64,000 nt of DNA, from NCBI RefSeq assembly GCF_022539665.2, contig NC_081332.1, forward strand, positions 248,001-312,000, read 5' to 3'. Under the pieces are notes generated by a model. It searched no databases, was not told the DNA's origin, and saw only the letters and a program-made list of their open reading frames with translations. This DNA comes from Daphnia carinata. Lineage: Eukaryota. This document shows positions 23,413 to 57,389 of the stretch, one piece after another. Each line of letters starts with the position of its first letter. The stretch's first letter is position 1. The translations under genes were made by a program, and so were the position numbers.

Positions 23413-23427
23413 CCCTTCAGAGAAGAA

Positions 23428-27437: not shown

Positions 27438-27551
27438 TGATCATTTAATCCTCCAATTGATACCGAAATTTATGGAATACTTACGAAATTATAATCGCAA
27501 TAAAACCGTTGGTTTCTTCGTGAAACTTACAGGGTCGAACTTATATTACAT

Positions 27552-27623
27552 GGTTACATGGTGTAATGGTTAGCACTTCAGACTTTGACTCTGAAAATCT
27601 GAGTTCGATTCTAAGTAGGACCT
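27552..27623 (+). pseudogene. Degenerate tRNA-Gln(TTG), unit 17
   Basis: GGTTACA 5' strand and CTAAG T-stem mismatches; loop CTTTGAC. Confidence 0.8.
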
Positions 27624-28449: not shown

Positions 28450-29244
28450 ATGACGGATGATGTTATTTCTGGCGGACATAGGATACCTCGCACGCCTGTA
28501 AGCACCCCCCTTGTTCCCCTAACGCCAGTGGTACAAATAACCGACGAAACAGTTGCTAAGTTAATTGATTTTGAGAAACTATCAGGTCGTTCTACGTCCA
28601 CGTTAGATAAGTTTCAGGGCTGTAAAGCGTCAGAAGCAGACACTGAGGCCGTTAAGAAATCTGCTTCCCCTGTTTTGAAACCTGAAGTGCAGACAGATAA
28701 TACTCAGTTACGTAAATTACGGTCGAATCCTGCTTATGAGGAAGTCGCTCCGTTCGTTAAACCCACCAATAAACAAACTGGTACACGTGCTAAGTCTACT
28801 GCCGCTTCCACTCAACGTCCACGATCGGTTTATGCTAAGTTCTTTTCTCGTCTTGCTCCTCCAAAATCACCTACGAAAAGCGAATCAAAGGCTAGTCTCC
28901 TCTCGAGTACTCTTTTAAGCTTCTTTCAAAAGAAAAGCCCAGTGAATGGACGATCACCTCAACTTGAGTCTCCATCACCTATACCACGAGATCCAGAGCA
29001 ATCCATCCACAGTATTTCCGACGCCGTCGAGTCCAATTCCGTCCCTGATATTAGCACTCAAGTGCCTGAAGGAGAGGGTGTTGGACTTCCAGTCACACGA
29101 CCCGAAAATTTGGGACCAGCTGAACCGGCTACTGAACGATTTCGGGCTGAGGGACCGCCCCCTGGGCAAACCGCAGTTGCTGACGGACGTGGAGACGCCG
29201 ACAATATTCCTGAAATACTTAGCTGTGATTCAGCGGGCAGATAA
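28450..29244 (+). CDS. Probable N-terminal, low-complexity part of element-2 Gag (separated by a frameshift at ~29240)
   Basis: 264-aa S/P/T-rich ORF starting just after the PBS; composition continues in the gag frame. Confidence 0.6.
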   Translation: MTDDVISGGHRIPRTPVSTPLVPLTPVVQITDETVAKLIDFEKLSGRSTSTLDKFQGCKASEADTEAVKKSASPVLKPEVQTDNTQLRKLRSNPAYEEVAPFVKPTNKQTGTRAKSTAASTQRPRSVYAKFFSRLAPPKSPTKSESKASLLSSTLLSFFQKKSPVNGRSPQLESPSPIPRDPEQSIHSISDAVESNSVPDISTQVPEGEGVGLPVTRPENLGPAEPATERFRAEGPPPGQTAVADGRGDADNIPEILSCDSAGR

Positions 29245-31234: not shown

Positions 31235-31262
31235 CTATGAACTGTAGCTTCGGGTCAGTTGA
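31222..31262 (+). promoter_or_regulatory. -1 ribosomal frameshift signal (G GGA AAC plus downstream stem/pseudoknot)
   Basis: Heptamer in the correct gag phase two codons before TAG; the -1 frame is open into pol. Confidence 0.8.
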
Positions 31263-34200: not shown

Positions 34201-35274
34201 GGAGAAACTGAAAGATTTAATCGTACAATGACGACAATGTTGCGTAAAGAATTAGAAGACGGAGCGCACGGAAATTGGGAAAACATGCTGGGAGATGTTT
34301 TATTTGCTTACCGTAGTTCTGTCCACTCTTCGACATGTGAAACCCCGTATTATTTACTGCACGGTAGAGATCCCAATATACCCATTAATGAATTCCTTGA
34401 CGCTTCCCCAAAAACGTTTACCTCCGCATCAGATTACGTAGGTAACTTAGCTGATCGCTTGCGTTACAGTTTCCAGCGCGTCCGTGAGGAGAGCGAAAAA
34501 GCAAGGAAACGTCAGAGGGAACAATATAATAAAAGAGCGAATGTAAAACAGTATATGGTAGGTGATAGAGTATTATTAGATATTAGGGTAGTTAAAGAGG
34601 GCGATAGTAGGAAGTTTACCTCTAAATATAAAGGTCCTTATAGAGTTGTAAAAGTTTATTCCAATAATACAGTTGATATTGCTGATAATTCATACATCTG
34701 TCAACGAACTCACGTTAACCGTCTAAAACCCCTGTACGAAACAATGTTATGGAAAGACGAACATTGTCCCTCTATTGAGACGCCTTCGAAGTTCGAGAAT
34801 CGATTTCGTAAATCGATTTCCACCCAAACAATGGAAACTATGGAAAATATGGAGCTAACAACAAGCGAGTTGGAAAACATGGAATTGGAACCTTTGGAAT
34901 TGGAGAATGTGGATATGGAAGCAAGAGCCGCAGAAAACGCGGATGTGGAAAGTGCGGAACCCGAAACGGTGGAATTGGAGTCAGCGGAGTTACAAATGGC
35001 CGCCAACCAAAACAATAAACAACATTCTCCTTTAGTCAGCGAAACCCAAGGAATATATATTTCAGACGATAATAAGTCGGCTTTTGATGACATGTGCAAT
35101 AGCCCACTTAACACCACAATAATTCACGGAAACAACGCAGCTGCAATAATAAATCCTGAATCTGATGCTCGTCAGGTGGCGCCAGCCATCGATCAGCCTG
35201 AAGAATTGCCACCCCAAAATGCTACCGGACGCCCGCACAGAAATCGAAGACTACCAATGCGTTATAGAAATTAG
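31237..35274 (+). pseudogene. pol: Pol of element 2 (PR-RT-RH-IN) with an in-frame TGA at 32557-32559
   Basis: LFDTGA; VRFCVDYRKLN; MAFGL*NAPATFQR; YLDD; TDACDYGIG; HHCC; DFLGP/SDRG/ETER; GPY. Confidence 0.95.
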
Positions 35275-35416
35275 AAGCGTTTTTCCAAAACAAAGTCAAC
35301 GATCACATAACGAACGACGTGTATTTAACAGCAAGAAATTTTAAAAGGGACTTCACAACGTTGCTGACACTTGTTGAGTCGAGTTCACCAAAACCGCGCT
35401 CCAAATTTAAACTTCC

Positions 35417-37653: not shown

Positions 37654-39022
37654 AAGGACTTTGATTTATATTTTTACACATCCACTCATGCCTGTATGTA
37701 TCTGTTCTTGCCCTTTACCGAATAAATTAGGCCGAAAACTAGCTATTCATGCTCTTGTTCATATATATCTATATATGAACTACCTCACAATCTAAAGTCA
37801 GGTAAAAGGAAGGGAAAGGGGTATAAGAAAAAAAAGACCCTATAAGCCGATACACAAAAACATATACCTACACTTAGAATAGAAAGATATCAAAGTAACT
37901 ACCCGCGTTAGCGTATGCCTTATTTTACAGTAAATTCTCTAAGTTCAGTTCTAAGTCTTGTTTTGTCTTTTTCTTTTTTTTGCGCCAGAATACTCCTTTT
38001 AACGTAGGTTTCCTTGAGATTCTTCCCTCTTAACAAAGTCTTCCCCTCTTTTCGTCCTCTCCTTGATCCCTCGCGCATATAGAATAAAATAAATCAATGG
38101 CCCATATATCTCATAAGCTTACAGACCTTTTTACATGAAATTTACGCCTATTTTACCCCAACCTCTTGTGTCTGCGACAAATGTCCCTTGTCTCGCACAA
38201 GCCGCTTTTTCTTTCTTCCCCAGATGTTCGTTCCCCTTTTTAGCGCCCTTTTATTTCCTTCTCTATACCATTTCTCATGTGTTGGACTTAGAAAATAAAA
38301 GCTAGTCTTCGCGTCGTTTCTATTATCAAAAAACAATGAATGATAACCTTGCGTAGTATAGCACCCTCATAGATGGATGAGTTATCTAGTTCTACTGAGG
38401 ATTCGAACGTCGAACATCCAGCATCACAGCTAATCGCTCTACCTTTTGAGCTGTTAGCACCTGTATTACGCCTTGCGTTGAGCTTAGGAAAAATACACCC
38501 TTCAAGCCTATCGAGCGCGCCCTTTTTTCCTTACTCGTGTTTCACTTGCCTTTTGCCTTATCTGTACCCGCCCTTTGTTGTACCTCAAAATGAAAATTGA
38601 CCATGTGTTTTTCCGTCGTTAAAATCATTTCATGCATCTTTTTATTCTCTTGCCTAAACGATACATTCTATCCATGATTTTTCTTTTGCATCATTGAGGT
38701 CATTCTTTCTTCTTTCTAATGACACCAATCACTACACAAAAATATTCACCCTTTATTCCGAATGAAGCGTATTTTCCATGCCCTATATGCGTATTTTTGC
38801 TCGCTCGCGACCATCGGCAATTGTCGAAAAGCCGACGGAAGATCGTTGACCTTTCTCCTTGCCGTCTTACATACTCCCCGCTTTTGCTTATTATTTTATC
38901 TTCTTTATTATTTTTCGCTATCTAGTTTTAAGAAACCCACATGACGTGATGTTATGCTTTTATCTTTATTATCCGATGCTGACTTTATCATGATGTTCAC
39001 CCTACGTTTCCATTTATAGAAA

Positions 39023-39899
39023 ATGTCGCTGCTTCCATTTATGCTGTTATTATGCCTTTATGGGTTACACCCGCAGGCATTTGAAACGACTGTATGCGAC
39101 TGTTCGGAAACATCGAAAATGGGAATTCTACAATTTTCCGATGCTAATTGTCAACCAATTGCGCCCGATGACAGAGCCGTTACGGTGAAATATGCAATTT
39201 ATAGTGAAGAACGTGCCGCAGCTAAATTTCCCGGTTATGTTTGCGCCCGATGGAAGAATATACGCCGCATCACAATGAACTTTTTCGGTCAATTGGTGAT
39301 AGTGCCGGATAAAATTCCAATTGATACGTCGCCCGCCGTGTGCAACGACATGATTAACCATAAACGATGTGATGATTATTGTATGACTTTTTCGGACGAT
39401 AAATATGTTTTTGATCGCGAACCTGAGATTTTTGGATATTGGTTGCAGACGATTGATTCCGAAATTATAAATTGTGTTCTCGAAAAAATCCAACTTTTTC
39501 AAGAACATGAAGACGGCGACTTTTCGACACCTATCGGAACGGCTTCTGCTACCACTGGAAATTTATCTCATAATCATTTGACATTGATCTGGGACAAAAC
39601 TTACACTCAAAAAACTAAAATGAGTACTCGATTGGTTGAAGATGGAATAGGCTCACTGGTCCGAATAGCAGCAGACGACACAACTTTCAGACTACAAGAC
39701 GATGCCAAACAACTTGATTTTCATTTAACTCCTATAAAACGCTGTGCCTCACTGCAAAACGAATGCACCAATAGAACTTCGTCGTTTGAGGTCATTGGCC
39801 AATCAAAACTCACCGTTTCGACGGCGGCCATCATGGAAAATTTAACAGCGCTTTTGGAGGCCCCAGAGCCATCTAGCGACGAAAATTTAAATGTACCCG
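39023..39899 (+). pseudogene. Truncated Cys-rich envelope-like glycoprotein (class III fusion-protein-like); frame runs on into array spacer to 40015
   Basis: Signal peptide MSLLPFMLLLCLYGL; VCDCS; GYVC...MNFFG; N-glycosylation sequons; no TM because it is truncated. Confidence 0.7.
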
Positions 39900-40096
39900 T
39901 ATGCTGTTTTCTTCTGAATCGGTTAACTTGTTTTACTCTGAGTGCAATTTCCCTAAGACGATTATCTCCCAGTGATCGGGCGGATCGATTTGGATTTGGT
40001 TCATGTTTGAATTAAAATTGAGAACGATGCGATCGAACACTGCCCTTGCAGTGCGAGTTGGATCTAAATGTTGGAACAAAAACCTAATGCAGAAAC

Positions 40097-40169
40097 TGCC
40101 CCGAGTGAGGTTCGAACTCACGACCTCGAGATTATGAGACTCGCGCTCTGCCTACTGCGCTATCGAGGC
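40097..40169 (-). tRNA. tRNA-Met(CAT), unit 18 (D-stem substitution)
   Basis: One change (CGCTCTG on the + strand). Confidence 0.8.
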
Positions 40170-40268
40170 ATTGTTTTAATTAGAAAATTAATCATGTAAA
40201 ACAGATCATTCTTTGGTAGGGTGCAGTAAAGACACAAGTGAGGTTATCATGGCAGACACAATATGTAA

Positions 40269-40341
40269 GCCCGGTTAGCTCAGCCGGTAGAGCGCAGGAC
40301 TTTTAATCCTGAGCTCGAGGGTTCAAGTCCCTCATCGGGCG
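40269..40341 (+). tRNA. tRNA-Lys(TTT), unit 18 variant
   Basis: Anticodon stem CAGGA/TCCTG; 3 substitutions. Confidence 0.85.
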
Positions 40342-40458
40342 ACATGAAATCATATTCTATAATTCAAATATTGTGCATACATGCCCAATGCTGGGAATGT
40401 TTATTGAAAAAAGGCTTACGGTTCATTGTTACTCGAGTAAAATTGTAATCAGTTTGCA

Positions 40459-40540
40459 GACGAGGTGACCGAGCGGTTAAGGTGATGGACTGCTAATCCA
40501 TTGTGTATTGCACGCGTGGGTTCGAATCCCATTTTCGTCG
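40459..40540 (+). tRNA. tRNA-Ser(GCT), unit 18 variant
   Basis: 2 substitutions, both giving G:U pairs. Confidence 0.85.
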
Positions 40541-40651
40541 AGATCATTTACTCCTCCAATTGATACCGAAATTTATCGAATACTTACGAAATTATAATCG
40601 CAATAAAACCGTTGATTTCTTCGTGAAACTTACAGGGTCGAACTTATATAC

Positions 40652-40723
40652 GGTTCCATGGTGTAATGGTTAGCACTTCAGACTTTGACTCTGACAATCT
40701 GAGTTCGATTCTCAGTGGAACCT
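40652..40723 (+). tRNA. tRNA-Gln(TTG), unit 18
   Basis: Same as the unit-5 allele; perfect acceptor stem. Confidence 0.92.
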
Positions 40724-41540: not shown

Positions 41541-43940
41541 TAATCGAACGAGCGTTTTTTGTCCGATAGTTTGGAAGAAAACCGAACGGCTTATACCGGT
41601 TTCTGCACTTCAAACACCGTTATCAATATGACTTCATTTTACTCCATCATAACTTTTTTTTCAATTAATATTCTTAATGTTTTTGCATGATTATATGCTA
41701 TATCAATAGCTTTTTAGAGCTCATTTAATAGAAAAGTAATTTTGTTTACACAGTATTAGGATTTTTGCATTTGACATTTTCTTACTGGTGTCTTCAAGCC
41801 TACCATCACCCGCTCTTTACTAATGTTGTTATTCATTCTTTTTACTTTTTTCTTCGTGCCTCGTTGAGGATTCTGGGGAGGGCGTATAAGTACCTCTTAA
41901 TACACGGGTAAATAAGAAAATTATTATATAAAATAATTTAAGAAACGTTAATTTAATAATAAAACACTGTTTGCCCTTGCCATAGTCATAGAAACCTGGT
42001 TGCTCCACGCTGTATGGTAAATGTTATACGGGTATGCTTTTTAAACGGCTAGTACATTTTAAACAACTTTTAAACCAACAAAACAAACAATGGCACCTTT
42101 TGCTATGAATTATTCTAACAATCTGCTTCTCCTAAAACAAATATTAAATATACTGCAGTTAGAGAAGAGTAGTGTGAAACAACGAGTGTCGAAACACACG
42201 AAATATTCTAACTCTTATTACTGAAAAGCGAGGATGAAATCAGGATTTTTTTTAAATTTTATATTTCATTTTGGGCTGAATACGTCAGAATCATTTTCAA
42301 ATATTGTACGTCAATTAACTCAAGGGAAATGAAATAATGAAAATGTCAGTGGAAATTGAATAACCCAAAAGCAAATTGCATGTTTTGTTAGGCTATGATT
42401 AAATTTCAGTCTTGAAGTCAACTAATTATTACCGTTGGAGACAGGTTCCGCAATAAATTGTCTAGTTTGCCTCTCGCCCCCTTTTGCGCCAACAGCTTGC
42501 AATTCTGACGAAGTTCCTCCACTAATTCTGAGGTTCTCTGTATGGTAATAGGAGATAAAGTTTACACATGTTTATGGAATGAAGTTAATTGACAGTATTG
42601 TAGTATTTTAAGATGATTACCTTTGCTCTCGACTCCAAAAGACGAATTCTGCGTCTACTACCATTTATTTGGGTCTATTTCTTTCTGGTGCTCAAACAAC
42701 CCCTGTATTTGGGCCGTGGAATCGGAACTTGCTCGCTCGCGGATTTTGATGCTTTCCAGAGATAACCCTTCAACGCTCGACATTGTGCACATAAATTCAT
42801 CTTTTCAGCAACAAAGGAGCATTTCATCGAACGTAAGACTCCATCTTTGTCCCACACGCATGACAATTTTGACGACATCTTGACAGTGTGCAGCGCGTAA
42901 TCAGCTACACTAATACAAGGCTTTTGTAATCCAAAGGCAACAATCATTGCAGACAGCTCTTCTATTGATGAAAAGGTCTCCGCAAGATCTTTGAGCGAGA
43001 TATTCCTGCCATTGAAGTAGTACAATACTATTGGGCCGTTCAGAACTTGCACGGTCCTCACTAACATGTTACCATGTGGTAACATATCCGGATTGGTGCA
43101 CAAAATTGTTTGATTGTGGTTATTAAACGACCACATCCATCCGTGCCCATCATCTGGTAATTTCACCATAAGTTAAAGTGATTGATAAAGTAGCAAAGTT
43201 TGTCTGAAACTCAGCATTTGTAGATTCCTCGGTAATAGGAATGGTTGCTTCATTAACTTCCATCACATCTTGATTGATATAACATGTAGCTGAAAGTAGA
43301 ATGAAATACTAATAATAATTGGAATTTAGTTAATAGTAAAAGTTTTACCATTGGCTGCTGTTGAGTTGTCATGTAACTGTTCTTCTACACTTGGATGACT
43401 CTTGTTCATTGCAAGGTTCTTGTAAAATAGCAACGATGTTCTCTACTGGTTTCTTGCTATGTTGTGCTGATATTCCATTATTGGTTTGGGAGCCTTCGTG
43501 GACTTCCATGACAGCTCTGTTCAATATATCATCTACTACACACCTAAATAGAACTTAAAATGACAATTAATTGTTTATCAAAATTACCAGTGGTCAGTTC
43601 TCATTGTTCTCTAGTGGCAGTCACGTTTTCCAATTGTTCTATCTGTGGTAGATTCATCATTTCAATTTCACTATCACCTGTACTTGCTTTTTGGTTATGC
43701 TGTAGTTTACTGGTTTTTGTTTTCCCCTTGTTCGTTCAACCTACTTGTGCACCTTTAGGTTTCAACGAACCCCCATTTGGTTCACAATGTAGCACTGGAA
43801 ATATAAAATGTGGTTTTCCATAATATTATTACACAATCTTCAAATTTGATAACACCATAAAATGAACATATACCTTTCCTCAGATTCTTACATGTTTCTT
43901 GTAGGATGTTTTGTAGTGGTGGTCTACTCGGCAAATCTAA

Positions 43941-45525
43941 TCTATACTAGGAGCCTGTCACATTGTGCTTTTGTTTTGATTGGCTGGCGTCAAATCCGCC
44001 GTCTGCTATAGTGAATTGGTGGAATGGGCATTTGGAAGACTAAACTGCGGGTGGAATTGCGGAATTAGACAATTTTCCGGTCTACGGGCTTGGCTTAAAA
44101 CGGGTGGGCAACGGCACGTAAGCTGACGGGCAGGGCATTTTATTATTATTATTCTAATTAATTATTTAAGTAGTTTAATTTAATTTAATTTGTTTATTTA
44201 TTATTTTTATTGGCCACTACGGCAAGCGTTTTGGCGGTCAGAGAGCGAGTCGATGGGCAACAACGGCGAGTTCTTGGCGAGCAAAGTAGGTTGACGGGCA
44301 GTGGTAAAAAGTAAGTGGACAGGCAGCTAAATGGGCCTTTTGACGGGCAGAGACTGTACAATAGGTCGGATAAATGCAATTTTTTAGTCTATGGGCTTGG
44401 CTTAAAACGGGTGGGCGCTACAATAGGTAACTGTACAGTGGAAGACGGGCAACTACAGCGGGTTTTTTGGTGGGTAAAGAGGGTTGACGGGCAGAGACTA
44501 TTCGAGAAAAAACGGGCAAAAGGCAAAAGTGGGTGGACGGCAACTACAGCGGGCGTTTTCTGGGCTGAGACTGTGAGGAAAAGACGGGCAAAAGTAAATG
44601 AAATGGTCAATGGGCCACTATAGCAGTCGTTTTGGCGGGCTGCGAATGGGGTGACGGGCAGAATGGGGGTCGATGGGCAGCGAGTGTGGGTCGACGGGCC
44701 GCGAGTGTGGGTCGACGGGCAGCAAGTGTGGGTCGACGGGCAGCGAGTGTGGGTCGACGGGCAGCGAGTGGGTCGACGGGCAATGAGTGGACCGACGGGC
44801 AGCGAGTGGGTCGACGGGCAGAGAGTGGGCCGACGGGCAGAAAGTGGGTCGACAGGCAATAACAGCGGGCTTCTTAGCGGGCAGAAGCAAAAAGTGGGTG
44901 GACAGACAACTATAGCGGGGACTTTGACGGGCAGAAATTGCAACAAAAGACGGACAAGTGCAAATAAAATATCGATGCTGTTTTGCGGGCCGTCGGGCAG
45001 AGAGTGGGCCGGCAGACAGACAGGGAATCAACTAGCAACAATGACAGGTTTCTTGGCGGGTAAAGTGGGTTGACGGGCAGAAGCAAATTGTAGGTAGACG
45101 GGCAACTGTAGCGGGTGTTTTGACGGGCGGAAACTGTGATAAAAGGACGGGCTAATGACAAAAAAGGTAGATGTGCCCAAGCAGGCGTTTTTGCGGGCAC
45201 AATGTGTTGAGGGGCAGAGTGTGGGTTGACGGGCAGAGAGGGGGTCGACGGGAAAAGAGTGGTTTGACGGGAAAAGAGTGGTTTGACGGGAAGAGAGGGG
45301 GTCGACGGATAACTTCAGCTGGGTTCTTGGCCGGCAGAAAAGTCAGGTGATGGACGGGCAGAAACAGGGAGTGGGTCGGCGGGCAAGAAAGGGGAACTCC
45401 TAATTTGTAATAAGAATTAGTAGTAGAAGGGAAAAACAATAAATGTGGATCGATTTTCTTAAAAATAGCGCTAATTACGCTAGCGCCACCTATACCCCGG
45501 CCCTGGACGGGCCCAACGTTACTAG
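43941..45525 (+). mobile_element. Non-autonomous Helitron
   Basis: A|TCTATACTA 5' end; GGCCC-tggac-GGGCC hairpin then CTAG|T 3' end; no TSD; removal restores a ~60-bp GT-AG intron. Confidence 0.85.
44640..45390. repeat. GC-rich minisatellite (19-21 bp, core GTGGGTCGACGGGCAG) inside the Helitron
   Basis: CAGCGAGTGTGGGTCGACGGG tandem at ~44678-44850, with degenerate copies on both sides. Confidence 0.9.
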
Positions 45526-45918
45526 TACAACAAAATAAGTTAGAAAATCTTTTAACATTCTGAAATATAGAGCTAGATTACCTTCAATTAAAAAACGTTT
45601 TGGAACTGCATCATCTCTAAGTCTCCAATTTTTATATGGATGGAAATATGGAATACTTTTAATATATTGACTCCTTTTACTACGTCGTTGGCATCAAAAT
45701 GACGACTGTATACTCGAGACGTTTTTGCCAATCGACTTGTTGGCATTACGCCTTGCCACTTGGTCAACGAGGACTTTGGAACTTTGAAGAAAGTTATTCC
45801 ATTTTCCTTCGTACTTCCTTTTGAATTAATTTCACAACCACTTACGTGACAACGATTCCCCGTTGCAGCCATTCTCACATGTTTCTAAATGTAGGACGCC
45901 ATTATTGTCGGGATATCT

Positions 45919-47972
45919 TAGTGTTGGCGACTATCTAAACCTCAAAACGATATATCGATATTTTTAGATAGATTTTAGATAGTCGACTTTTTTAGATAAT
46001 CACTGTATCGATACATTCCAAATAGATCCCCCATTTAACAACAGATGGCGTCTAGCGCAAATGAGAAAAAAACTATATATTATAATTTAACATTTTTCAC
46101 CTCTGCCCAGATTTGAACTCCGACGCTTCGTGTTACGAGCGACGACGTAATCCACACCGCTAAACCAGTAAGAAAAAATCGACACGGCACAAGTATGGTT
46201 TTCGTTGGCGAGTATCGATACAAATATCATGAAATACAATATTTTTATCGTCTGCTTTACTTTACAAGTCTTAACAGATGATTTTAGTTATACATATCAG
46301 GGTTGCCTTACGTAATAGAAAAGATTTTTGTAGAAATTTTTATTACATGAATATAAAATGTAGAGAAAATAATAATTTACCATTGTGCAAATGTATTTAT
46401 CGTCAGCATCTAAAAATATATATTTAACATTTTTTTAAAATGTCTCGCAGACGGATTCCAACTTCTGTACTTCGTATTACGAGCCCGGAATAGATCCACA
46501 ACGCTAACTCGTCACAATTTATGTGTGTCAGGCAATGAATCCAACGTGTGGTGCCGAGTATCGATACAAATTTCAGAAGCAACTGTTATTTACCGTCATC
46601 TGCATTATCCACAATGCTAAATAGAATACTATTTTGCTATGAAAATCTGTTATATTTATAAATTAAAACTCTTATTTTATTAGTACCGTACACGCCTCAG
46701 TTAACAGAGAGCAAGCATCCTAAATTGTTGTTACTCAGATACGTTTAAAATTTAATGTGTAGCAGATTGAAAAAATGCCCTAAAACAGATTTGAACTCGA
46801 GAATCCCGAATCCCAAGCGCAGTCCTTATCCACAGCGCTACTCCCTTATGATATTGTTTACAATGCTATGCATAATAATATTGTTACCGAGTATCGATAC
46901 AAATTGCAGACGAAATTCTAACATTGCTGTCGTCTGCAACGATTTAGATTGAAGATTTGTTTACTATTGATATCAGGGTTGCCACGCCAATTAATAGTAT
47001 TCTTGTACAGCAAGTTAACTATTAAAAACGTCACAATGTTTATATAGGACTGTTATGCAAAATATTTTGGAATTCCCGTTAGAAACCACCTAAAACATAT
47101 TCTTGAAACAATTAAAAATAGTGAAAAACTATTTCTCCGTTGAGGGTTGAACTCCGTACCTTAATGTTCTGAGTCACATCTTCTTCCACTTAACCATGAC
47201 GTTCTTGAAAAATGCGTAACCAGCAAGGTGGTATTGTTGTGGGATAGTATCCATACAAATTACAGACGAATATCTAATTTTATCGTCGTCTGCTCAGTTT
47301 TACGAAGCTTCGCAGTGAACTTTTTCAGTATTCAGGGGTGTTGCCATCAAATTTATCAGTGCTATAAGTTTCGTAATATATTATTATAAATATTTTTAAA
47401 AAAGACAAATGCTACCGCCTCTAAAAAACTTTTTTGTAAAAACATTCATGTAATTTTTCTCACACAACCAAAAATTGTGGAAAAGTTCATCAATTGGGCT
47501 TGAACCCAAGGATCTTGTGTCATGAACCTCGCCTTATAGCTCTGCGCCATCACACTTGATAAAATTAGAATCATAATCCATATGCATTTGAATAGTATCG
47601 ATACAAATCGACAACGGAAATCTAATATTTCAGTCGTCTGCTTGCATTTCAAAGCATAAACACATTATTTGCAACAATAAAATCGATAAAAACATGCATC
47701 CGTACCTAGCATTGAACTCGGAACTGTTATGCCGCAAGCGCTGTCTATAACCACAGCGCTATGACATGTATCATAGGAGACGATGGTTGCCGCATAAGGT
47801 TATTGCTTATAATTATCGATACAAACCCGACAAACTAACCCCTATCATTTGTGCAGTGCTATTTTTGGCCGGTAGATGGGGGTTATTAGATATTTTATCG
47901 ATAATCGTATCGTTATCTAAAAGTGGGCGTAGATAATTTGTATCTAGCAGAGCTAGATAATCGCCAACACTA
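45919..47972. mobile_element. Non-autonomous hAT-type DNA transposon (2054 bp)
   Basis: TIRs TAGTGTTGGCGA(C/T)TATCTA (18/19 match); 8-bp TSD GGATATCT at 45911-45918 and 47973-47980; no transposase ORF. Confidence 0.92.
46098..47822 (-). ncRNA. Array of six tRNA-like Pol III cassettes, each with an upstream GTATCGATAC palindrome
   Basis: Cassettes at ~46098-46169, 46441-46515, 46776-46849, 47133-47204, 47484-47558 and 47695-47768, each with A box, B box and T4-T7 terminator. Confidence 0.7.
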
Positions 47973-49985
47973 GGATATCTCTAAATCTACCCAACAGATG
48001 GCTCTTTACCGCTGCCAGCTCCTCCCACAAAATCGCTGAAATTTTAACCACGAGTCCCAGCATACCCGTATAGCATTTCCCATACAGCGTGGAACAACCA
48101 GGTTTCTATGATTCTGGTTATCCCCATAATAAAAATGACATGGGCCGCTGACGCAGAAATTTGTACTACCCTTCCCACGATTTTTTTGATACTTATTCTA
48201 CTTATACTGCCCCCAGGTGGAGGTTTTGATCACTACTTGAGCTTAAACAACAGCTTTCCAGCAGACGCCATTGTTTGTGGTATTTTTTGGCGTGTAGATT
48301 ATGATTGAAAATGTAGTTGCGTAACGAAAATAAAAATAGGCTAGGTTGTAAAGTTTTATCTACGGAGTGATGTGTGATAATGTTGAAGGAGTAGCAAGGT
48401 ACGTAATAAGGCACCAAGGTATATAATGATTAATTTTAATGGTTATCATTTAACAGGCAGTTTGGTAAATGGTAAAGGGGAAAACAAGTACTTGAAAGTA
48501 TCGTATAAACAAAGTTTTAAGAAAATGGAACCAAAAAATCAAGAGCCTGATAAAAAGCGAGGATCAAACTCACTCCTGAAGACATTTACAATTCTTGCTT
48601 ATTGACAAATATTCCAACTTGCAGCTTCTACAGTTCAAGATCACGATAGTAACATGGTTGGTGTTGACTGCAATAGTTCTAACAAAAAAATTGACACCAG
48701 AAATTGTTCTGCCAATCCTGAAGATCTGAAAGAGCGTCTAGCAGCTAAGCTATCATGGTTAAATTTCCTTTTTTTTCCTAAAGTAAGAGAAAGTGAAAGT
48801 ACTGCAAGTATACTTACAATTCATATGTATGTGCTAATCTTTTTGTTTAAGGAATGCAAACCTGCTTATGCCATTCAATTTCAGGGGAAAAGCAGGACTT
48901 TTCTGATAAACTGAAAATCCAACTTAAACGGAAGTTAGATAAGTTGGAGAAGAAGAAACTAAACAGGAAAAATAACAGATGCTAAGGTAAACTTTGAATT
49001 TTTACAAAAAAATTTTTTTAGATCTTCAAATAATTTTACTTTTCTGTATTATAACAGGTAAAAGAATACTAAGAGCAATAGGTTCAAAAAACAATGTGGA
49101 ATTGCTTGTGAGCTTGTCAAACCAATTAAGAAAGAGAATAAAATCAACATCACAAACGAGAAAGAAGTTGGTTGAATGCATCGACGAACAGGAAAAAAGA
49201 AAGGAACAACAACAGAAAAGGGATAAATCAACATTAAGAAAACGAAAAATGAAAAGAAAGCATAAACTGAATAAACTAGCGAAAAAAACAAACTTATCGT
49301 ATGAATTGCCGATATTGACATGGATGAGCTGACTCGTGTTCCATTATTTACAAGCCGTGTCATGATAGTTTTGTATAACAATACACTGGCATGCCTTCCA
49401 TGATCGTTGAATTTTTTTTTTTAAATTTCGGATTCATTTATAGAAGGTTAAGTGACATCGTTTATCACTGACGTACAAAAAAAAAGGTCGTTCCTGGTCG
49501 AAAATAATTAAAATGGATTTGTCATTATTAGTAGATTTGGTAACGCCAAGTGCAGAGCTTCTTTAAACTTTTCAGTGTTGTATGTGATGTTTAATTAGGT
49601 AATCAATGGCTCCTTGCAAATGTGCGTGAGGTGGAAAACAAGATACGGAGGACGCCAAAAATCCTTTATAAATGCGGGAAAAGTTCCTCTTCCTCTTTAA
49701 CAAAAGCCACGCCATAACTATTGAAATTTTATTCATAGATGTTTCTACGCAAGTTGTACATTTAAGTTTTGCTTAAACCATTTATTGCTTTGGTGGAAAG
49801 CGCTCCTACCCTACATAACAGACAGCTTTCACCGCCTGGCATAGTTATAGCAGTAGGGTTTGATTTTCATATAATTATTGGAATCTTTGTAACTGCGAAA
49901 AGAATTGAAAAAGTGATGAAGAAATAAATGGTATTTGAATCAAGAGTGAAATATAGTTTATATTTTGTCCTTGATTCAGATGATA

Positions 49986-50573
49986 ATGGTTTAATGGATA
50001 GTACTTCAGACTCTGACTCTGACAATCTGAGTTCAAATCTCAGTAGGACCTGAGACAGTGAAGCCAACGACAAACATTTTTCAACACTACCCTTTTCGTA
50101 GAAGCCACTCTTGTGACAAACGCGTTTTTTTTTCATTTCCACTGTGAAAGTTTTCAAGTGTATCGTAGAAACTTACCCCTTCTTTAAGTCAACGTTTGAA
50201 CCATTTCTCCTGTGTCCTTGAGACTGGCTCTACCTTGAAAGCTAAAACATATTAACTGTTCTCCCCCCTTATGTTGTCGCCTGCTTCTTTTCCTCCCCGA
50301 ATACTACTTTGATACACGGTGTGGAACATTAAGTAACAACCCATTTCTGTGGTTTAAGTTATGCTGTTTTCTTCTGAATCGGTTAAGTTGTGTTACTCTG
50401 AGTGCAATTTCCCTAAGACGATTATCTCCCAGTGATCGGGTGGATCGATTTGGATTTGGTTCATGTTTGAATTAAAATTGAGAACGATGCGATCGAACAC
50501 TGCCCTTGCAGTGCGAGTTGAATCTAAATGTTGGAACAAAAATCTCATGTAGAAACTGCCCCGAGTGAGGTTC
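49986..50573. repeat. Relic tRNA array unit (5'-damaged Gln(CTG) 49986-50051; 3' 17 nt of Met 50557-50573)
   Basis: Homology to the array unit. Confidence 0.93.
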
Positions 50574-53500
50574 CCTACACCAGCTGTCCAGTTTTGTCCA
50601 GCTTTACTGATCGTCAGCTGTGTTTCCGTCTGCAAGTGTTCAGTCTGTCCAGTTACTGGCCCGTCAGCTGTACCCCTACACCAGCTGTCCAGTTTGCCCA
50701 GCCTTACTGGCCCGTCAGCTGTGTCTTCCGTTATCAGATGTCCAGCCTGTCCAGCCCTACTGCCCAGTCAGCTGTCCAGCCTGCCCGACCTTGCTGGACC
50801 GCCATCTGGATCTTCCGTCATTGCCCGTCTAACCTCTCCAGCATTCCGTCGTCCGTCAACTGATCGTCCGGCCGGCCGGCAACCAGCAACATTCCGCGCA
50901 AGTTCAACAGTGCCAAGCGGAAGAAGGCGGACAAGTTACTGCGTAGCAAGAAAAGGATTGCTCAAGCCCTTCATCGCTTCCAGGTCCAGCAAGCGACTGC
51001 TTCCAACATTTCTACAGTTACTGCTGCTAGTACTTCTGAAGAACAAATTAGTGAATCGCGACCACATCTAGCTGACTTTGTGCCGCCATAGAATCCTAGA
51101 CAGGTCTTTTTTCACCCGTACGACCCGTGGCCCGTTTCACCCGTTGTTGACCCACCTACACCTCCGGCACAATCGGAATCCGAAGAGGACGATTTTATTC
51201 CGAGCCTCTCCGATTGTGAAGTCATAAGCGAAGTTGGACCCTCTTCAGAGGACGAAGCACATCGACCTGAACCGGTACCATCGTCGCCACGCCCCAGATT
51301 AGTTCGGATAAGAAACACCAAGACTGACGAAACGCGCTAGATCGGCCTTAGTCAACTTTTCCGCCCGGGTCCGCAAGATCGAATCGTCCGTCGTCGTCTG
51401 AATTAATTGATTCTGTGATCTAGTTTGTCATCTCCTTTGTAGGATGTCAACTCGACTCCGCCCCTCGTTGGTATCTGTTGTTTTGGTTCTTTCCGTCCGG
51501 TAAATACACTGCATCATGGCTCAAGCTATCGTACCTACTCTCAGTTCCATCGATGAAGAAAAAGAAGCATTGTCAGACGTGGAAACCATTGTTGATCCTA
51601 CCCGCCTCAAGAGGCTAAGGACTAATGGAAAGTTGGCTCATACTAAAGCGGATAAGAAGCTCTCGCAATCTATAAGAGTCGGTGAAGATCGTGACACTGT
51701 ACGAGCACTCCGCGCTAATTACGTTCCTGAGTTCGACAGCATAGAGAAGTGCCACGATCGATATGTCCAGTACAACACTCCCAATTGTAGCGCAGATGAA
51801 CTAGAGGGCGAGAGACAGTGGATACAAGCTGTTATCTATGACCACCAATCAACCTTGGCAGATTGTGTCGATTATGTAGCATGGACGAAGCCAAAATCGA
51901 GCTCTTCCGTACATTCAAGATCATCTTCACGACATTCCATTGTTTCGTCCCGACAAGCTAAAATTCACAAAGCTGAGCAAAGGGAGAAGGAAGCCGAACT
52001 GATGCTTCAACAAACCCTGGAAGAGACAACGCGTAGAGAAGAAGAGGATGCGAGATTAAGAGAGCTCGACGAATATAAGCGTCGCGTTGAGAGCGAAAGG
52101 AAACAGCGAGAGCTTCGAAACGAGATGGAACGACAACGATTAAGCGGTGCCATTATGCGACGACAATAGGCCGAACTTACCGCAGCTGAGCAGCCTGGGG
52201 CAACACGAGCTTTTTCCGTTACGAGCAATATGTCCAGGATAAGTGGTTGGTAGTTACGTTCAGCTACCACAGCCGCAGGTTTACCGAATATTGCTACGAC
52301 CTCCGCCGCTACTCAAGCCCCTACAGTGATCACACCGTTAGTAGGATCCACGTCTAGGATACCTACACCGACGAGACTCTTTGCCCAATCGATGGCGACT
52401 ACACCGCCCACACCATCAGTAGGGTTCTTGGGAAGAGTACGCAATCTCGCTAATAAAGTCTTCACGCCCGGCAGCTCTTTATCACGCTCGACGTCTATGC
52501 CACACATCCCTACGATTCCTGTTCAACCTCCGACCACGCTTCCACCTGGGAACGTTACCACCGATTTCTCTCGGAGACACTAACCAACCGAGTTCCTTGA
52601 GTTCAGCGCTTCCGAATAGCACAAACTTTGGGCCGGTCAACCTAGGTCCGTCGCACGGTCCGGGTTTGTCCGCGCGAGTTTCACCGTAACTACGCTCCCG
52701 AGTGGCTCCGGTTCGTCACACGGGCCAGCCACAACTACCACTACATATAGTTTGCCGTTATTCACGCCATCGATAAACTTCGAACAACAAGCAGCGTCGA
52801 CTTCATTTCCAGGCTACCAAGGAACACCCGCTCATCCGCCAACAGCGCAACATCCGCCTACCGTTTACACACCGGACGCTTGGATTCGTGCTCTTAACAC
52901 TCCGCCTGCCGTCACGAATCGCCCTGGTATCAAACCACCCCGGATGAAAGCGCCTACCTTCGATGGAGATCCCGGCAACTGGCCGATGTTCATACAGATA
53001 TTCAAGGTTTTTCTCCACGATGCCGTGAGTTCTGAGGCAGAACGCATCGCACATCTGTATGACACGCTAACACCGACCATTAGGAAGGACATCGGAGGAG
53101 CTCTTCTCAACCCGGGGCTTTACCAACATGCGCTAAACGAACTTCAACGGACATACGGAAACCCGCAAATTGTCTCCAAACCTGCACCTCATCTCTTCTC
53201 AAGCTGCGGCCGTTTAGAGACAACGACTTCAGTGCACCACGAGCTTTCTCAGCCGACCTTCACTCCGTGGTAGCAACTCTAAAATTAGGAGGATACGGAA
53301 TGGAGCTGTACAGTCACACTACGCTTTCACAATTAATCTCCAAACTTCCTCCAGCATTGAAGAGTCGATGGGGCGAGAAGAGTTGGGCAATGTAGCCCAC
53401 TCTCGCATCTAATGAAGACTTAGATCAATGGCTCAACGGAGTTGCAATGGCTGAACAATCTATCCGAGCGAGTTCGAACGAAACTCCTCATAGACAGCAC

Positions 53501-56500
53501 ATTAAACCATCGGAGGAGAACCATCGTACTCCACATAAACCGAACGTATTCAACACCACGTCCGTAACCCTCCCGAAACCGAACAACGACGAAGCAGCCT
53601 CTAGATGTCCGGTGTGCAACAGCAACCATCCACACCGCCTAAAGGACTGCAGAATAATTAGAGACATTCACATGGAGAAAATAGCGCAAATTGTAAGGAA
53701 GCCAACTTGTACCTTCGTTGCTTAGGCAGCGACCACCTTAGCAGAGCGTGCACCCGTACCGAACGTTGCTCGAAGTCCGACTGCGATGGAATCCATCACC
53801 CACTTCTGCACGGCGCTCCACGGCTCTACCCTCAAAGAACGAATCAAGGATCAACGACTACGGAATTCTGCGGTTCCGTCGCAACCAAATCGGCAGATAG
53901 CCGCACTCTACTACCGATTGTTCCTGTCATCCTAAAGGTCAACGGCAACGAGTATCCACTCTATGCGCTCCCTGACCCGGGAAGCGAAATATCCGTGATA
54001 AAGGGGAAGACTGCGGCTCTCATCAATCTACGAGACAAAGTCGAACGAATTGCAACGAGGACCTCGGCAAGGTTTATGGGTCGGTCATCAATACCTATGT
54101 CAGCTTGAAACACGCGCGCAAGCTGTCCCGAGAGGAGATCAATGCCGGACCCCTCGGTCGAACGTAGTATTGCCCTCATCATCCTGTCTTCAACCCGAAC
54201 AAGCCAGGAAAGTGTAGAGTTGTGTTTGATTTATCGGCGAAACCCAATGGAACATGTTTAAAACGACGCCCTTCTAAAGGGACCTGACCTCATGACAAAC
54301 CTGATCGGCGTGCTCCTCCGTTTCCGCCAACACGCTGTCCCACTCGTTGGCGACATCGAAAAGATGTTCCACCAGGTACGAGTAAGATCTACCGATGGGC
54401 CGGCCTTCCGTTTCATTTGGCGTGAACCGGGTAGCGCAAACACCCAGCAACAAGTTGTGAAGGACAGCGAAGATCCTAGCCCTTGCTACGTCAAATTTCA
54501 CGACACTTTTACGTAGACAACTGGCTAACGTCGTTCCCTTCCACAAGCAAGGCCATTTCGATTGCCCATCAACTGACTAGGGCGTTGAGGGCTGGTGGTT
54601 TTCCGTTAACCCAATGGGCCACTTCAAACGACACTGTACGGCAGGCAATTCCCGGCTAGCGAAAGGAAGGAGCCTCTGTCAACATGGATTTAGATGACGA
54701 CCCTATTGAACGAACCCTTGGGTTAGTTTGGGATTTTCGACGTGACGTCTTTGTGCTTGGTTGCAGAACCAGGAGGAAGAACTAAAAGGGATCTGCTGAA
54801 ATCCATCTTCAGCATCGTCGACCCCCTCGGCTTCCTGGCCCCTGTAGTCTTCCAAGCAAAGGTTCTCATGCAGGACATTTGGTGCCGTAAATTCGATTAG
54901 GATGACGAACTAACTCAAGATCTTATCGACCGTTGGATCCGCTGGACCGAAACATTGCCGTCACTCTCCAAACTCGTTCTCGAACGATGCATTTCTCCAC
55001 CGCGAAACGATTTTACAGCAATTCGAGCTACACATTTTTGGAGATGCGTCTGAATTAGGCTTCGCCGCCGTCGCATACGTTCGTTTCTTATTCAATGACC
55101 ACCCGGCCAGCGTCAAGTTCATCATCTCGAAGGCCAGAGTCGCCCCTTTGAAATTTCTGACGATTCCCCGCCTGGAACTCAACGCCGCTGTTCTAGCCGC
55201 ACGTCTCGGCACGCAAGTGTCCGTTGAACACGACCTCGCCTACGACCAGATCTCTTACTAGACCGACTCGACAACCGTCCTCAGCTGGATTAACTCCCGG
55301 AATTGTCGATTTAATCACTACGTCGGTAACCGGATCGGTGAGATATTTGAGACCACGACTCCCGATCAGTGGAATTACGTTCAAAGCGCGAACAATCCCC
55401 GCAGATGACGCCAGTCGCGGTCTAGATGCTTCCGAATTCACAATCGATCATCGATGGTTCTCTGGACCGCCCTCCCTTCGAGGATTAGACAACTGGTCCG
55501 AGCTTCAATCCCTTCCAGTAGTTGACGAAAGTTACCCGGAGTTCCGAGAGACGACGTGGGTTGGGGTAGTCCAGCGGGAAGTCGATGAAATTGACCAAAT
55601 TATCGAAAGGAAATCGAGACCGCAGATCATCTATAACACCGTCGCCTACCTCTTTCGTTTTATATGGAACGCGCGTCAGAGGGAACACAATCAACGAAGA
55701 ACGAATGGACTCTCTGCCGATGAGGTGCAAATGGGAAAATCTTTCATCCTCCAGCGGACAAAAGCGAACGTCTATCAGCCAGAGATGAACTATTTACGGG
55801 CCGGCCGCCCAATCGAAAAAGACTCAAAGCTGATTAAGTTGGCTCCATTTCTCGACCATCGAGGCTTCATGTGTCTCGGTTGCGAACCGACAAAGCGCCC
55901 CTACCAATCGATAGACGCCACTCAATCATTCTTCCCCGCTCTGAAAGGATGACACAGCTCATCCTTTGCAAGTAACACCGCGATCGGGGTCATCTTTCGG
56001 CCAGTGAGCTTCATCATGAGCCGCGTCGTCAGTTTTGGATTCCTAAAGGTCTCATCACGGCTCAACGAGTTCGCAATCTTTGCTACCTCTGCAGGAAACG
56101 AAGCACAAAGGGGACCACACCGATCATGGCTGCTCTTCCCGTTTGAAGGTTGGGTATCCCGCATTTACCCACACAGGAGTGGACTATTTCGGGCCTATCA
56201 ACGTTACTATTTTCCACCGAACGATTAAACGTTGGGGTTGCTTGTTTACATGCCTAACGTCAAGGTGTGTGCACCTCGAAATGGCGTACTCAATGGATAC
56301 CAGTTCATTTATTTCCGCTCTCGATCGCTTCCAAAATCGTCGAGGTGTACTCGCGTCCTATCATAGCGATAATGGGGCAAACTTCGTTGTTGCGCAAAGG
56401 GAATTGACCGAATGTCTCCAGAACTTGAACCAGGACGCCATCCTTCAACATCTAAACCGGCAACCGTCCAAATGGATGTTTAATCCGCCAGCTGCTCCCC

Positions 56501-57389
56501 ATTTCGGAGGTGTCTGGGAGCGAATGGTAAGGGCCGCCAAGATCACGTTACCAGCCGTTCTAGGAAACCAGGGCCTAACCGATGAAATCTTACTGACCGC
56601 CTTCACTTTAATTGAGAACATCCTTAACAGCCGCAAGCTTACTCCGATAAGCGACGACCCGAACGCTCCAGAATGTCTCACTTCTAACCATCTATTGCTT
56701 GGCCGCGCAACTCCTAATCTACCGCCCGACGTCTTTACCGAGGATGATTTAACCGCCAAGCAGAGGTGGCGCATCGCACAAGCAGTCGCAGACCAGTTCT
56801 GGCATTGCTGGATGAAAGAGGTACGTAAGCCTCACTGAACGAGAGAAATGGTACCAAGAGCATCCTAACCTCCAGGTCGGAGATATTGTCGTCATCAATG
56901 ATCCAGCCGGAGGAAGAGAATCGGTAACGAAGGGCGGAGCTTAGGGGTTCCGACTTCACTCGACCTCAGTCTCGACCACGCTAGCAAGTGAACAACATCT
57001 CAAACTCGTTTCGTCCCGTATTTCCGTCCTTAAATTGAACTTCGCACAAGCTCAACGTGTTCTTCCTTTGGCAAAGGTTTTGTGTCGCGTCTTCCCGAAA
57101 GTTTGTGTTGTTTCGCGACTACTTGCAGTGCTGTGTTTCTGACGACGCCCTAACTTTAACCTTTCTTTTCTTACACGAGACGCGTGGCTTGGCAGCCATT
57201 GCGTGTGGTTCTCGTGCAGATCCCCCCCCCCCCCCTTTTCGTGTGTATCTCCTTTCGCAACGTTCGGTGACAGGCAACCAACGGGCTTGTATCCGAATAC
57301 ATCGGCTACCCCGTGTTAAATCTCAACTTTTTTTTTTGACTAATCATTTTTCTTTTCTCTTCCTCGTACAACCGCGTGGAGAGGCAACA
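50574..57389 (+). mobile_element. Decayed BEL/Pao LTR retrotransposon (5' LTR lost; probable 3' LTR ~56921-57389)
   Basis: Gag PTFDGDPGNWPMF and three Cys/His knuckles ending HHPLLH; RT GPDL..LIGVLLRFR..GDIEKMFHQ and YVDN; RNase H FGDASELGFAAV; integrase GVDYFGP/SDNGANF/PHFGGVWERMV. Many stops and deletions. Purine tract at 56909-56920; ends CAACA. Confidence 0.9.

What the first reader, a model, noticed from the sequence alone, without database searches (positions are those of the whole stretch)
45919..47972. hAT-type transposon whose entire cargo is an array of six diverged tRNA-like Pol III genes
Seen: a 2054-bp element with 19-bp TIRs, an 8-bp TSD and no ORF. It holds six minus-strand units spaced 346, 333, 356, 348 and 218 bp apart. 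Each is a ~72-nt tRNA-shaped sequence with an A box (TAGCGCTGTGG / TGGCGCAGAG type), a B box (GAGTTCAAATC type) and a T4-T7 run at or shortly after the 3' end. The anticodon-equivalent loops differ: CTCGTAA, CTCGTAA, CTTGGGA, CTCAGAA, TTCATGA and CTTGCGG (CGT, CGT, TGG, CAG, CAT, TGC). Acceptor and anticodon stems pair poorly, so these are not ordinary tRNAs, and they are not copies of the neighbouring array tRNAs. Inference: promoter boxes and terminators are retained while the rest has diverged, which suggests selection for Pol III transcription or TFIIIC occupancy. Candidate roles are a mobile small-RNA cassette array (tRNA mimics, decoys or guide-like RNAs) or a portable chromatin barrier. 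I do not recognise this architecture from a described family.
Basis: partly seen in the sequence, partly recalled or inferred. Interest (0 to 1): 0.9.

Follow-up and report, generated by a model that had tools for sequence, protein, structure and literature searches.

The report
Water-flea transposon carrying Pol III array
A 2-kb non-coding cut-and-paste transposon, probably from a water flea, carries six old tandem copies of a tRNA-derived module that has lost the tRNA fold but kept the RNA polymerase III signals and a fixed upstream protein-binding motif, so it likely works as a protein-bound, transcribed cassette, although neither binding nor RNA has been shown.

Summary
The element is real: 2054 bp, 19-bp TIRs (18/19), a perfect 8-bp TSD, no ORF. 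The same TIR sits on metagenome contig L002 ahead of a BED-finger, Hermes-like ORF whose best hits are Daphnia proteins, so this is a non-autonomous hAT. The six minus-strand units align without gaps across 71 tRNA positions; 10 of 11 invariant columns are canonical tRNA positions, while acceptor, D and anticodon stems pair at background level. Five of six have a T4+ run within 5 nt of the 3' end. All 8 TATCGATA sites of the window lie in the element; 3 are subterminal. The shared upstream DNA means tandem duplication, not SINE insertion. Best reading: a TFIIIC + BED-protein module kept for occupancy and short transcription. Whether selection acted on the transposon or on a captured host locus is open: no genome or RNA data were available.

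The parts
45911..45918 (.). left target site duplication GGATATCT
45919..45937 (+). left TIR (19 bp; one change against the right TIR and against L001/L002)
45938..46050 (+). left subterminal region: GATA/CGATA repeats, TATCGATA at 45953 and 46006, AGATGGCG at 46043; first 94 bp 72% like the end that precedes the transposase ORF in L002
46099..46169 (-). unit 6 tRNA-like body (loop CTCGTAA); T7 run 26 nt downstream
46212..46255 (-). unit 6 upstream module: GCAGACGA (46248-46255) and TTTGTATCGATAC (46212-46224)
46443..46513 (-). unit 5 tRNA-like body (loop CTCGTAA; B box has C56G); T4 run 2 nt downstream
46558..46603 (-). unit 5 upstream module: GCAGATGA and TTTGTATCGATAC (46558-46570)
46777..46847 (-). 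unit 4 tRNA-like body (loop CTTGGGA); T4 inside the 3' strand, T6 1 nt downstream
46891..46937 (-). unit 4 upstream module: GCAGACGA...TCGTCTGC dyad and TTTGTATCGATAC (46891-46903)
47133..47203 (-). unit 3 tRNA-like body (loop CTCAGAA); T5 run 4 nt downstream
47247..47293 (-). unit 3 upstream module: GCAGACGA dyad and a one-base variant of the motif, TTTGTATGGATAC (47247-47259)
47486..47556 (-). unit 2 tRNA-like body (loop TTCATGA); T4 run 1 nt downstream
47595..47641 (-). unit 2 upstream module: GCAGACGA and TTTGTATCGATAC (47595-47607)
47698..47768 (-). unit 1 tRNA-like body (loop CTTGCGG); T5 run 5 nt downstream
47813..47825 (-). unit 1 upstream motif TTTGTATCGATAA (no GCAGACGA)
47880..47953 (-). 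right subterminal region: GATA/CGATA repeats, TATCGATA at 47896
47954..47972 (-). right TIR
47973..47980 (.). right target site duplication GGATATCT

Best explanation
This is a non-autonomous hAT transposon whose interior is six diverged tandem copies of one module (upstream TATCGATA motif, tRNA-derived A and B boxes, T run), likely kept because TFIIIC/Pol III and a BED-finger protein bind it, which would hold the element in open, insulated chromatin. Shown: ends, TSD, homology of the six modules including untranscribed upstream DNA, retention of boxes, motif and terminators, loss of the cloverleaf. Inferred: (1) a tRNA-derived Pol III unit came to lie about 55 bp downstream of a TATCGATA site, perhaps one taken from the element's own subterminal repeats, and the pair was duplicated; (2) TFIIIC binds the A/B boxes and Pol III makes 75-100-nt RNAs that stop at the T runs; (3) the TATCGATA site binds the family's BED-finger transposase or a host DREF/BEAF-type protein; (4) six such sites make a nucleosome-poor, barrier-like platform that keeps the ends accessible; (5) the RNA sequence itself matters little. 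The element would be moved in trans by a ZBED1/Hermes-like transposase like the one on L002.
For: Mean identity between units by segment: 13-bp motif 0.95, A box 0.71, B box 0.72, between boxes 0.44, leader 0.26, downstream 0.35. 10 of 11 invariant columns fall among 14 canonical tRNA positions of 71 (p 2e-8; position list recalled from standard tRNA numbering). Stems: acceptor 15 of 42, D 7 of 24, anticodon 13 of 30 cells paired, background 39%. Motif-to-T8 distance 64, 58, 63, 63, 64, 62 nt. TATCGATA 8 of 8 window sites in the element, shuffle mean 0.096, max 2 of 1000; 3 of the 8 are subterminal. T4+ within 5 nt in 5 of 6 units where 10.9% of positions would give one. Leave-one-out profiles find each unit at E 1e-10 to 1e-28 with the upstream DNA, and at 0.025 to 4e-10 with bodies alone. 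Partner: L001 and L002 share TIR and GATA-rich subterminal DNA; the L002 ORF has zf-BED (E 2.7e-8), 70% identity to Daphnia proteins, and its next exon is 69% identical over 51 aa to P0004, which matches Hermes transposase (E 7e-7). TATCGATA is the DREF site and holds the BEAF-32 site CGATA (PMC7471704 passages); Drosophila TFIIIC clusters with DREF and BEAF-32 at domain borders (PMC4226948 passages). Related interior DNA exists in run X1 on four listed contigs with 24-51 changed letters over 216-537 bp.
Against: Only one complete copy was seen; no genome was held, so copy number, conservation across copies and presence of units outside TIRs are untested. A non-autonomous DNA transposon needs no RNA to move. 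The X1 contigs cover interior pieces only and none listed reaches a TIR. Of the 16 listed differences inside the element none hits an invariant box base or the motif, but that is too few to count, is a selected subset (208 rows of the 4.1-kb stretch were not shown) and one changes position 32. A14 is lost in 4 of 6 A boxes; one B box has C56G; one motif copy is mutated. Three units have a T4-T6 run just before position 1, which would stop a transcript started further upstream. What DREF, BEAF and TFIIIC do together is known from Drosophila, not Daphnia; the binding site of this transposase is unknown. The units face away from the direction in which the transposase gene would be read.
Confidence: 0.45

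Rival explanations
1. Pack-type capture: the six modules are a host cluster of Pol III small-RNA genes with an upstream DREF-type element. Selection acted at the host locus, and the hAT ends later picked the cluster up as passive cargo.
For: The units are about 50% diverged from one another (0.41-0.59), far older than this insertion (TSD 8 of 8, TIR 18 of 19). The two autonomous-type ends found (L001, L002) show no unit in the stretches held. No X1 contig listed ties the interior to a TIR.
Against: The same palindrome is at both subterminal regions (3 sites), unit 1's motif lies 147 bp from the right end, and the array fills the element from end to end. The window's four real tRNA types show no TATCGATA. 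Rfam names no family for the units.
Confidence: 0.25
2. The RNAs are the product: six different short Pol III RNAs act as tRNA mimics, decoys or sources of small RNAs (like adenovirus VA RNAs or gammaherpesvirus TMERs, both recalled) that blunt host silencing or attract a tRNA-binding factor.
For: No indel in 71 columns across six units; terminators placed at tRNA length in 5 of 6; U33 invariant (1 of 49 non-box columns is invariant), Y32 and R37 kept in 6 of 6; bodies 49% GC against 35% for the element; a shared non-tRNA hairpin (positions 9-16 with 26-33) is paired in 38 of 48 cells and is the RNAalifold consensus.
Against: The hairpin is not significant: 27 of 400 column shuffles give as good a best helix and 91 of 500 pair shuffles reach its pairing. 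Folding z-scores of the six units run from -1.21 to +2.06. All-Y or all-R columns are 14 of 49, and two X1 contigs have A32 in unit 4. No complement over 12 nt in window 19000-64000.
Confidence: 0.2
3. No function: a tRNA gene or SINE head was captured, duplicated and decayed, or several SINEs inserted independently, and the motifs are leftovers.
For: Non-autonomous elements often carry inert internal repeats (established knowledge). This copy has some damaged motifs.
Against: Neutral decay cannot leave 103 of 114 canonical cells and a 95%-identical upstream 13-mer while leaders fall to 26%. Retroposition does not copy DNA 55-100 bp upstream of the start, yet that DNA is the most conserved part. 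The T run follows the tRNA head directly in 5 of 6, leaving no SINE body. The array could still have been functional once and be dead in this copy.
Confidence: 0.1

Closest known systems
Non-autonomous hAT elements (Ac/Ds type; partner ZBED1/Hermes-like)
   Same: Short TIRs, 8-bp TSD, subterminal repeats, no ORF; a TIR-sharing contig encodes a BED-finger, Hermes-like protein.
   Different: The interior is not a remnant of the transposase gene but an array of Pol III-type modules. The TIR start was not found in the five supplements of the D. pulex DNA-transposon survey (PMC2884549). Repbase and Dfam could not be searched.
TRIMp3 elements: Helenus, Ajax, Cassandra (PMC10886601; passages and section 20 read)
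   Same: Non-autonomous element that keeps a tRNA- or 5S-derived Pol III promoter while the tRNA function is lost.
   Different: They are LTR retrotransposons that need the transcript to replicate and have one promoter per LTR; this element moves as DNA and has six terminated units with an external motif.
tRNA-derived SINEs
   Same: A and B boxes kept, cloverleaf lost.
   Different: No body or tail; terminator directly after the head; conserved upstream DNA; tandem inside one TIR pair.
tDNA/ETC barriers and Drosophila architectural protein binding sites (PMC4226948; passages read)
   Same: TFIIIC boxes clustered with DREF/BEAF-32-type sites.
   Different: Those are fixed host loci shown by ChIP; here the pairing is a repeated module with fixed spacing on a mobile element, and no occupancy is shown.
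Dada transposons (PMC3706591, PMC8869645; passages read)
   Same: DNA transposons tied to tRNA/snRNA genes, present in Daphnia.
   Different: Dada inserts into RNA genes, has 6-7-bp TSDs and no TIRs; this element carries tRNA-like units and is not inserted in a tRNA gene.
VANDAL/VANC anti-silencing (PMC10398659; only the start of the abstract seen)
   Same: A transposon-encoded protein binds non-coding motifs of its own family to counter silencing: a model for step 3-4 of the best explanation.
   Different: Plant Mutator-like elements with a dedicated protein; no Pol III modules known to me; no such protein identified here.

Membership tests
hAT superfamily (non-autonomous) | short terminal inverted repeats | tested here: met
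   19 bp, 18 of 19 complementary
hAT superfamily (non-autonomous) | 8-bp target site duplication | tested here: met
   GGATATCT on both sides
hAT superfamily (non-autonomous) | subterminal repeats shared with an autonomous partner | tested here: met
   9-11 GATA/TATC words in the first 200 bp of both ends and of L001, L002; 72% over 94 bp to L001/L002
hAT superfamily (non-autonomous) | partner transposase with BED finger and RNase-H-like DDE domain | tested here: inconclusive
   L002 has zf-BED and an exon 69% like P0004, which matches Hermes; L002 ends before the catalytic residues and is not from the window's own assembly
hAT superfamily (non-autonomous) | several dispersed copies with their own TSDs | not testable with these tools
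   no genome; X1 shows interior relatives only
tRNA gene | cloverleaf with paired acceptor, D, anticodon and T stems | tested here: not met
   15 of 42, 7 of 24, 13 of 30, 17 of 30 cells paired, background 39%; ARAGORN and Rfam negative
type 2 Pol III transcription unit | A box and B box at tRNA-like spacing | tested here: met
   6 of 6 units; T8, G10, G15, G18, G53, T54, T55, A58, C61 invariant; A14 in 2 of 6, C56 in 5 of 6
type 2 Pol III transcription unit | T4+ terminator after the B box | tested here: met
   1-5 nt after position 72 in 5 of 6, 26 nt in the sixth
type 2 Pol III transcription unit | TFIIIC/Pol III occupancy and transcript | not testable with these tools
   needs ChIP and small-RNA data
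tRNA-derived SINE | tRNA-derived head with A/B boxes | tested here: met
   (profile of the window's real tRNAs hits 4 of 6 units, best E 6e-4)
tRNA-derived SINE | unrelated flanks upstream of each copy; body and 3' tail | tested here: not met
   upstream 13-mer 95% identical and upstream DNA raises leave-one-out scores; T run directly after the head
TRIMp3 (Helenus/Cassandra) | two LTRs with PBS and PPT, 4-5-bp TSD | tested here: not met
   ends are inverted repeats, 8-bp TSD, no near-identical direct repeats
Dada | insertion inside an RNA gene, 6-7-bp TSD, no TIRs | tested here: not met
   no tRNA or Rfam hit at either flank; 8-bp TSD and TIRs
chromatin barrier / insulator (TFIIIC + DREF/BEAF) | binding motifs present and clustered | tested here: met
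   6 B boxes and 8 TATCGATA in 2 kb
chromatin barrier / insulator (TFIIIC + DREF/BEAF) | blocks spread of silencing or enhancer action | not testable with these tools
   needs a reporter assay

The most novel reading that the evidence does not exclude
A hAT family has turned its own transposase-binding palindrome into the upstream element of a six-gene Pol III array. When transposase (or host DREF) binds, the array is switched on and gives the element a portable TFIIIC/BED insulator and a set of short non-tRNA RNAs that protect it from silencing. This would be a DNA transposon with a Pol III programme although it needs no RNA to move.
Probability: 0.2. Interest if true: 0.85.

Novelty: new variant of a known kind. 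Interest (0 to 1): 0.58.

Why it matters
Retroelements keep Pol III promoters because they replicate through RNA; a cut-and-paste element has no such need, so six maintained units ask for another reason. The fixed pairing of a DRE palindrome with A/B boxes is a compact natural construct for testing whether tDNA-type barriers help transposons escape silencing, and whether the DREF/BEAF site began as a hAT subterminal site. Daphnia has genomes, RNAi and genome editing (own knowledge), so the question can be tested. If the array is only captured host DNA, it would still point to an unannotated Pol III RNA family.

Tried and rejected
No whole genome was held, so copy number and cross-copy conservation were not measured. 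The look-up of sequencing runs listed 1 run (X1, DNA, share 0.06); no RNA holder listed. X1 was laid once; depth there is no copy number, and the complete list of differences for units 1-3 was not obtained. Collection scans: TIR in metagenome contigs 4 loci, of which L001 and L002 are related ends and L003, L004 match only the 19-mer; TIR in viral contigs 2 loci, 19-21-mer only; unit motifs in viral contigs 10 loci and 1 locus, none like a unit beyond the pattern; two patterns in prokaryote genomes, 0 hits each. Rfam at E<=10 gave 4 weak unrelated hits, all far below gathering. Profiles of the units found no further unit in the window or in the loci searched; next-best hits are the real tRNA-Met and tRNA-Lys genes. 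Alternative hairpin 9-16/26-33: inconclusive. Guide-like complementarity in window 19000-64000: best 11-12 nt. Tree of the six units: no starred branch, so no order of duplication. Matching each loop to its tRNA isotype could not be tested, as the window holds only Met, Lys, Ser and Gln genes. Ten full-text searches returned no description of a TIR element with a tRNA-like array in their listings; most listed papers were seen only as title and abstract start, the library lacks most subscription journals, and Repbase/Dfam were not searchable. PMC3845634 (passages) is not such a case. No support was found for a role of TATCGATA at Pol III genes or in Daphnia promoters.

Full report
The observation. 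Window 45919-47972 is bounded by 19-bp inverted repeats (18 of 19 complementary) and a perfect 8-bp duplication, GGATATCT. It has no coding frame over 74 codons and no second copy in the window. Six tRNA-shaped units lie on the minus strand with T8 at 47761, 47549, 47196, 46840, 46506 and 46162 (units 1-6). A post hoc A-box/B-box pattern finds 6 in the element against 0.008 on average in 1000 shuffles. ARAGORN and Rfam call none of them. They are 28-52% identical to the Met, Lys, Ser and Gln genes of the neighbouring array and 41-59% identical to each other.

Host and family. No genome was held. A frame 3 kb to the left is 86% identical over 47% of its length to a Daphnia carinata protein, so the host is probably a Daphnia species. 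A scan of metagenome contigs with the TIR gave 4 loci; L001 and L002 continue into GATA-rich subterminal DNA 72% like the left end over 94 bp, L003 and L004 match only the 19-mer. In L002 the end is followed by an ORF with a zf-BED domain (E 2.7e-8), 70% identical to three D. pulex/D. magna proteins. Its next exon is 69% identical over 51 aa to P0004, a D. pulicaria 'ZBED1-like' protein, which matches Hermes transposase at E 7e-7. L002 stops before the catalytic residues. The element is therefore a non-autonomous hAT; its units point towards the left end, opposite to the way the transposase gene would be read. The TIR start was not found in the supplements of the D. pulex DNA-transposon survey (PMC2884549; passages and supplement searches).

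What is conserved in the bodies. The six bodies align with no gap. Of 71 columns 11 are invariant, and 10 of these are canonical tRNA positions (T8, G10, G15, G18, T33, G53, T54, T55, A58, C61; hypergeometric p 2e-8; 103 of 114 canonical cells kept; the list of positions is recalled standard numbering). The stems are gone: acceptor 15 of 42, D 7 of 24, anticodon 13 of 30 cells paired at a background of 39%; the T stem (17 of 30) is kept mainly at the two pairs that are part of the B box. A T4-T6 run starts 1-5 nt after position 72 in 5 of 6 units, where 10.9% of positions would give one by chance; unit 6 has T7 26 nt downstream. Blemishes: A14 in only 2 of 6, C56G in unit 5, a T4 inside the 3' strand of unit 4, and T4-T6 runs just before position 1 in units 2, 3 and 6.

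Each body is preceded by TTTGTATCGATAC (one change in unit 1, one in unit 3), starting 64, 58, 63, 63, 64 and 62 nt before T8. Mean identity between units is 0.95 for this 13-mer, 0.37 just after it, 0.26 in the leader, 0.71 in the A box, 0.44 between boxes, 0.72 in the B box and 0.30-0.35 downstream. Five units also have GCAGA(C/T)GA 31-34 bp further up, in two as a dyad. All 8 TATCGATA words of the 64-kb window are in the element: 5 in modules and 3 subterminal; shuffles of the element give 0.096. Leave-one-out profiles recover each unit at E 1e-10 to 1e-28 when upstream DNA is included and at 0.025 to 4e-10 from bodies alone. So the unit of duplication was DNA with its upstream region. This rules out independent SINE retroposition, and the uneven conservation rules out plain neutral decay. 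TATCGATA is the DRE bound by the BED-finger protein DREF and contains the BEAF-32 site CGATA (PMC7471704, passages). In Drosophila TFIIIC clusters with DREF and BEAF-32 at domain borders (PMC4226948, passages). My searches found no paper that places a DRE upstream of Pol III genes or in Daphnia promoters.

Does the RNA matter? For: no indels, terminators at tRNA length, invariant T33 (1 of 49 non-box columns is invariant), Y32 and R37 in 6 of 6, higher GC, and a possible non-tRNA hairpin between positions 9-16 and 26-33, paired in 38 of 48 cells with 3 pairs changed on both sides. Against: 27 of 400 column shuffles give as good a best helix and 91 of 500 pair shuffles reach that pairing; folding z-scores are -1.21 to +2.06; 14 of 49 non-box columns are all-purine or all-pyrimidine; two X1 contigs have A at position 32 of unit 4; no complement over 12 nt in window 19000-64000. 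I read this as inconclusive, leaning to DNA-level selection.

Other copies. One DNA run, X1, holds related DNA. Four of its listed contigs cover 46451-46919, 46696-46911, 47010-47236 and 47231-47767 with 51, 24, 29 and 45 changed letters; two overlap on unit 4 and share only 9 listed differences from the window, so at least two further variants exist. One of them fits only as far as 46911 and then runs on for about 360 unlike bases, a hint of another arrangement of units. None of those listed reaches a TIR. The 16 differences listed inside the element miss the invariant box bases and the motif, but they are few and a selected subset, so I give them little weight. Flanks of the insertion are repetitive in X1.

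Mechanism. Most likely (0.45): a module of BED-protein site plus TFIIIC boxes plus terminator was amplified inside a hAT derivative and kept because occupancy, with short Pol III transcription, helps the element stay accessible in repeat-rich chromatin. Ends, homology and the conservation pattern are shown; binding, transcription and benefit are inferred. Transposases acting as transcriptional activators of their own copies is reported for plant elements (bioRxiv 10.64898/2026.08.24.746577, start of abstract and two passages), and a transposon-derived protein promotes a 7SL gene (PMC11893794, abstract); these are analogies only. Rivals: capture of a host small-RNA cluster (0.25), functional RNAs (0.2), no function (0.1).

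Comparison and novelty. It is a member of the non-autonomous hAT kind. It works, if at all, like a tDNA/ETC barrier or like the Pol III promoters of TRIMp3 elements (PMC10886601, passages and section 20), but it is not a TRIM, SINE, tRNA gene or Dada element (PMC3706591, PMC8869645, passages). Ten literature searches listed no TIR element with such an array; Repbase and Dfam were out of reach, so the family may be catalogued without this annotation. Unchecked notes of this scan describe tRNA-like units in another hAT, in Ginger-like elements and in Polintons of other genomes; I did not test them. They suggest a recurring theme and not a one-off; none of the notes shown mentions the upstream palindrome. 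Verdict: real, statistically strong anatomy, new variant of a known kind, function untested; interest 0.58.

Noticed in passing
window 374-18766, remnants at 27356-27623, 40096-40723, 49986-50044: Tandem tRNA array (Met minus; Lys, Ser, Gln plus), period about 1135 bp, 16 full units, broken up by transposons. Gln alternates between CTG and TTG anticodons; one Ser copy reads ACT (14344-14425).
   Followed up: no
window 931-1002 and copies: The Gln(CTG) genes carry a short direct repeat through the anticodon arm and score lower in Rfam (58 bits) than the TTG copies (66 bits).
   Followed up: no
window about 19400-26600: LTR-retrotransposon-like ORFs (gag, protease, RT, integrase by eye) with a long further coding stretch that looks env-like, inserted in the tRNA array; not scanned.
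   Followed up: no
window about 28900-35300 and 39020-40015: Second gypsy-like gag/pol set and a separate 331-aa frame; not scanned.
   Followed up: no
window about 51500-56840: Fragmented ORFs that look like a decayed BEL/Pao element (by eye).
   Followed up: no
window 41980-42038 and 48059-48117: 59-bp inverted match (91.5%) that brackets the hAT element, a 19-bp minisatellite region and a Daphnia-like coding frame; possibly the ends or inner repeats of an older host element.
   Followed up: partly
window 44636-45308: 19-bp G-rich minisatellite; part of this region is 100% identical to X1 contigs, whereas the hAT interior is only about 87-92% identical.
   Followed up: no
window 46298 and 46974: CAGGGTTGCC lies in the far upstream spacer of units 6 and 4, with a variant near 47335 for unit 3: a further partly kept motif.
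   Followed up: no
L001 688-1010: Left end of the same TIR family followed by what looks like a decayed start of the transposase frame.
   Followed up: partly
window 46696-46911 (X1 record 6): A related contig fits unit 4 up to just past its TATCGATA motif and then diverges, hinting at copies with other unit orders.
   Followed up: no
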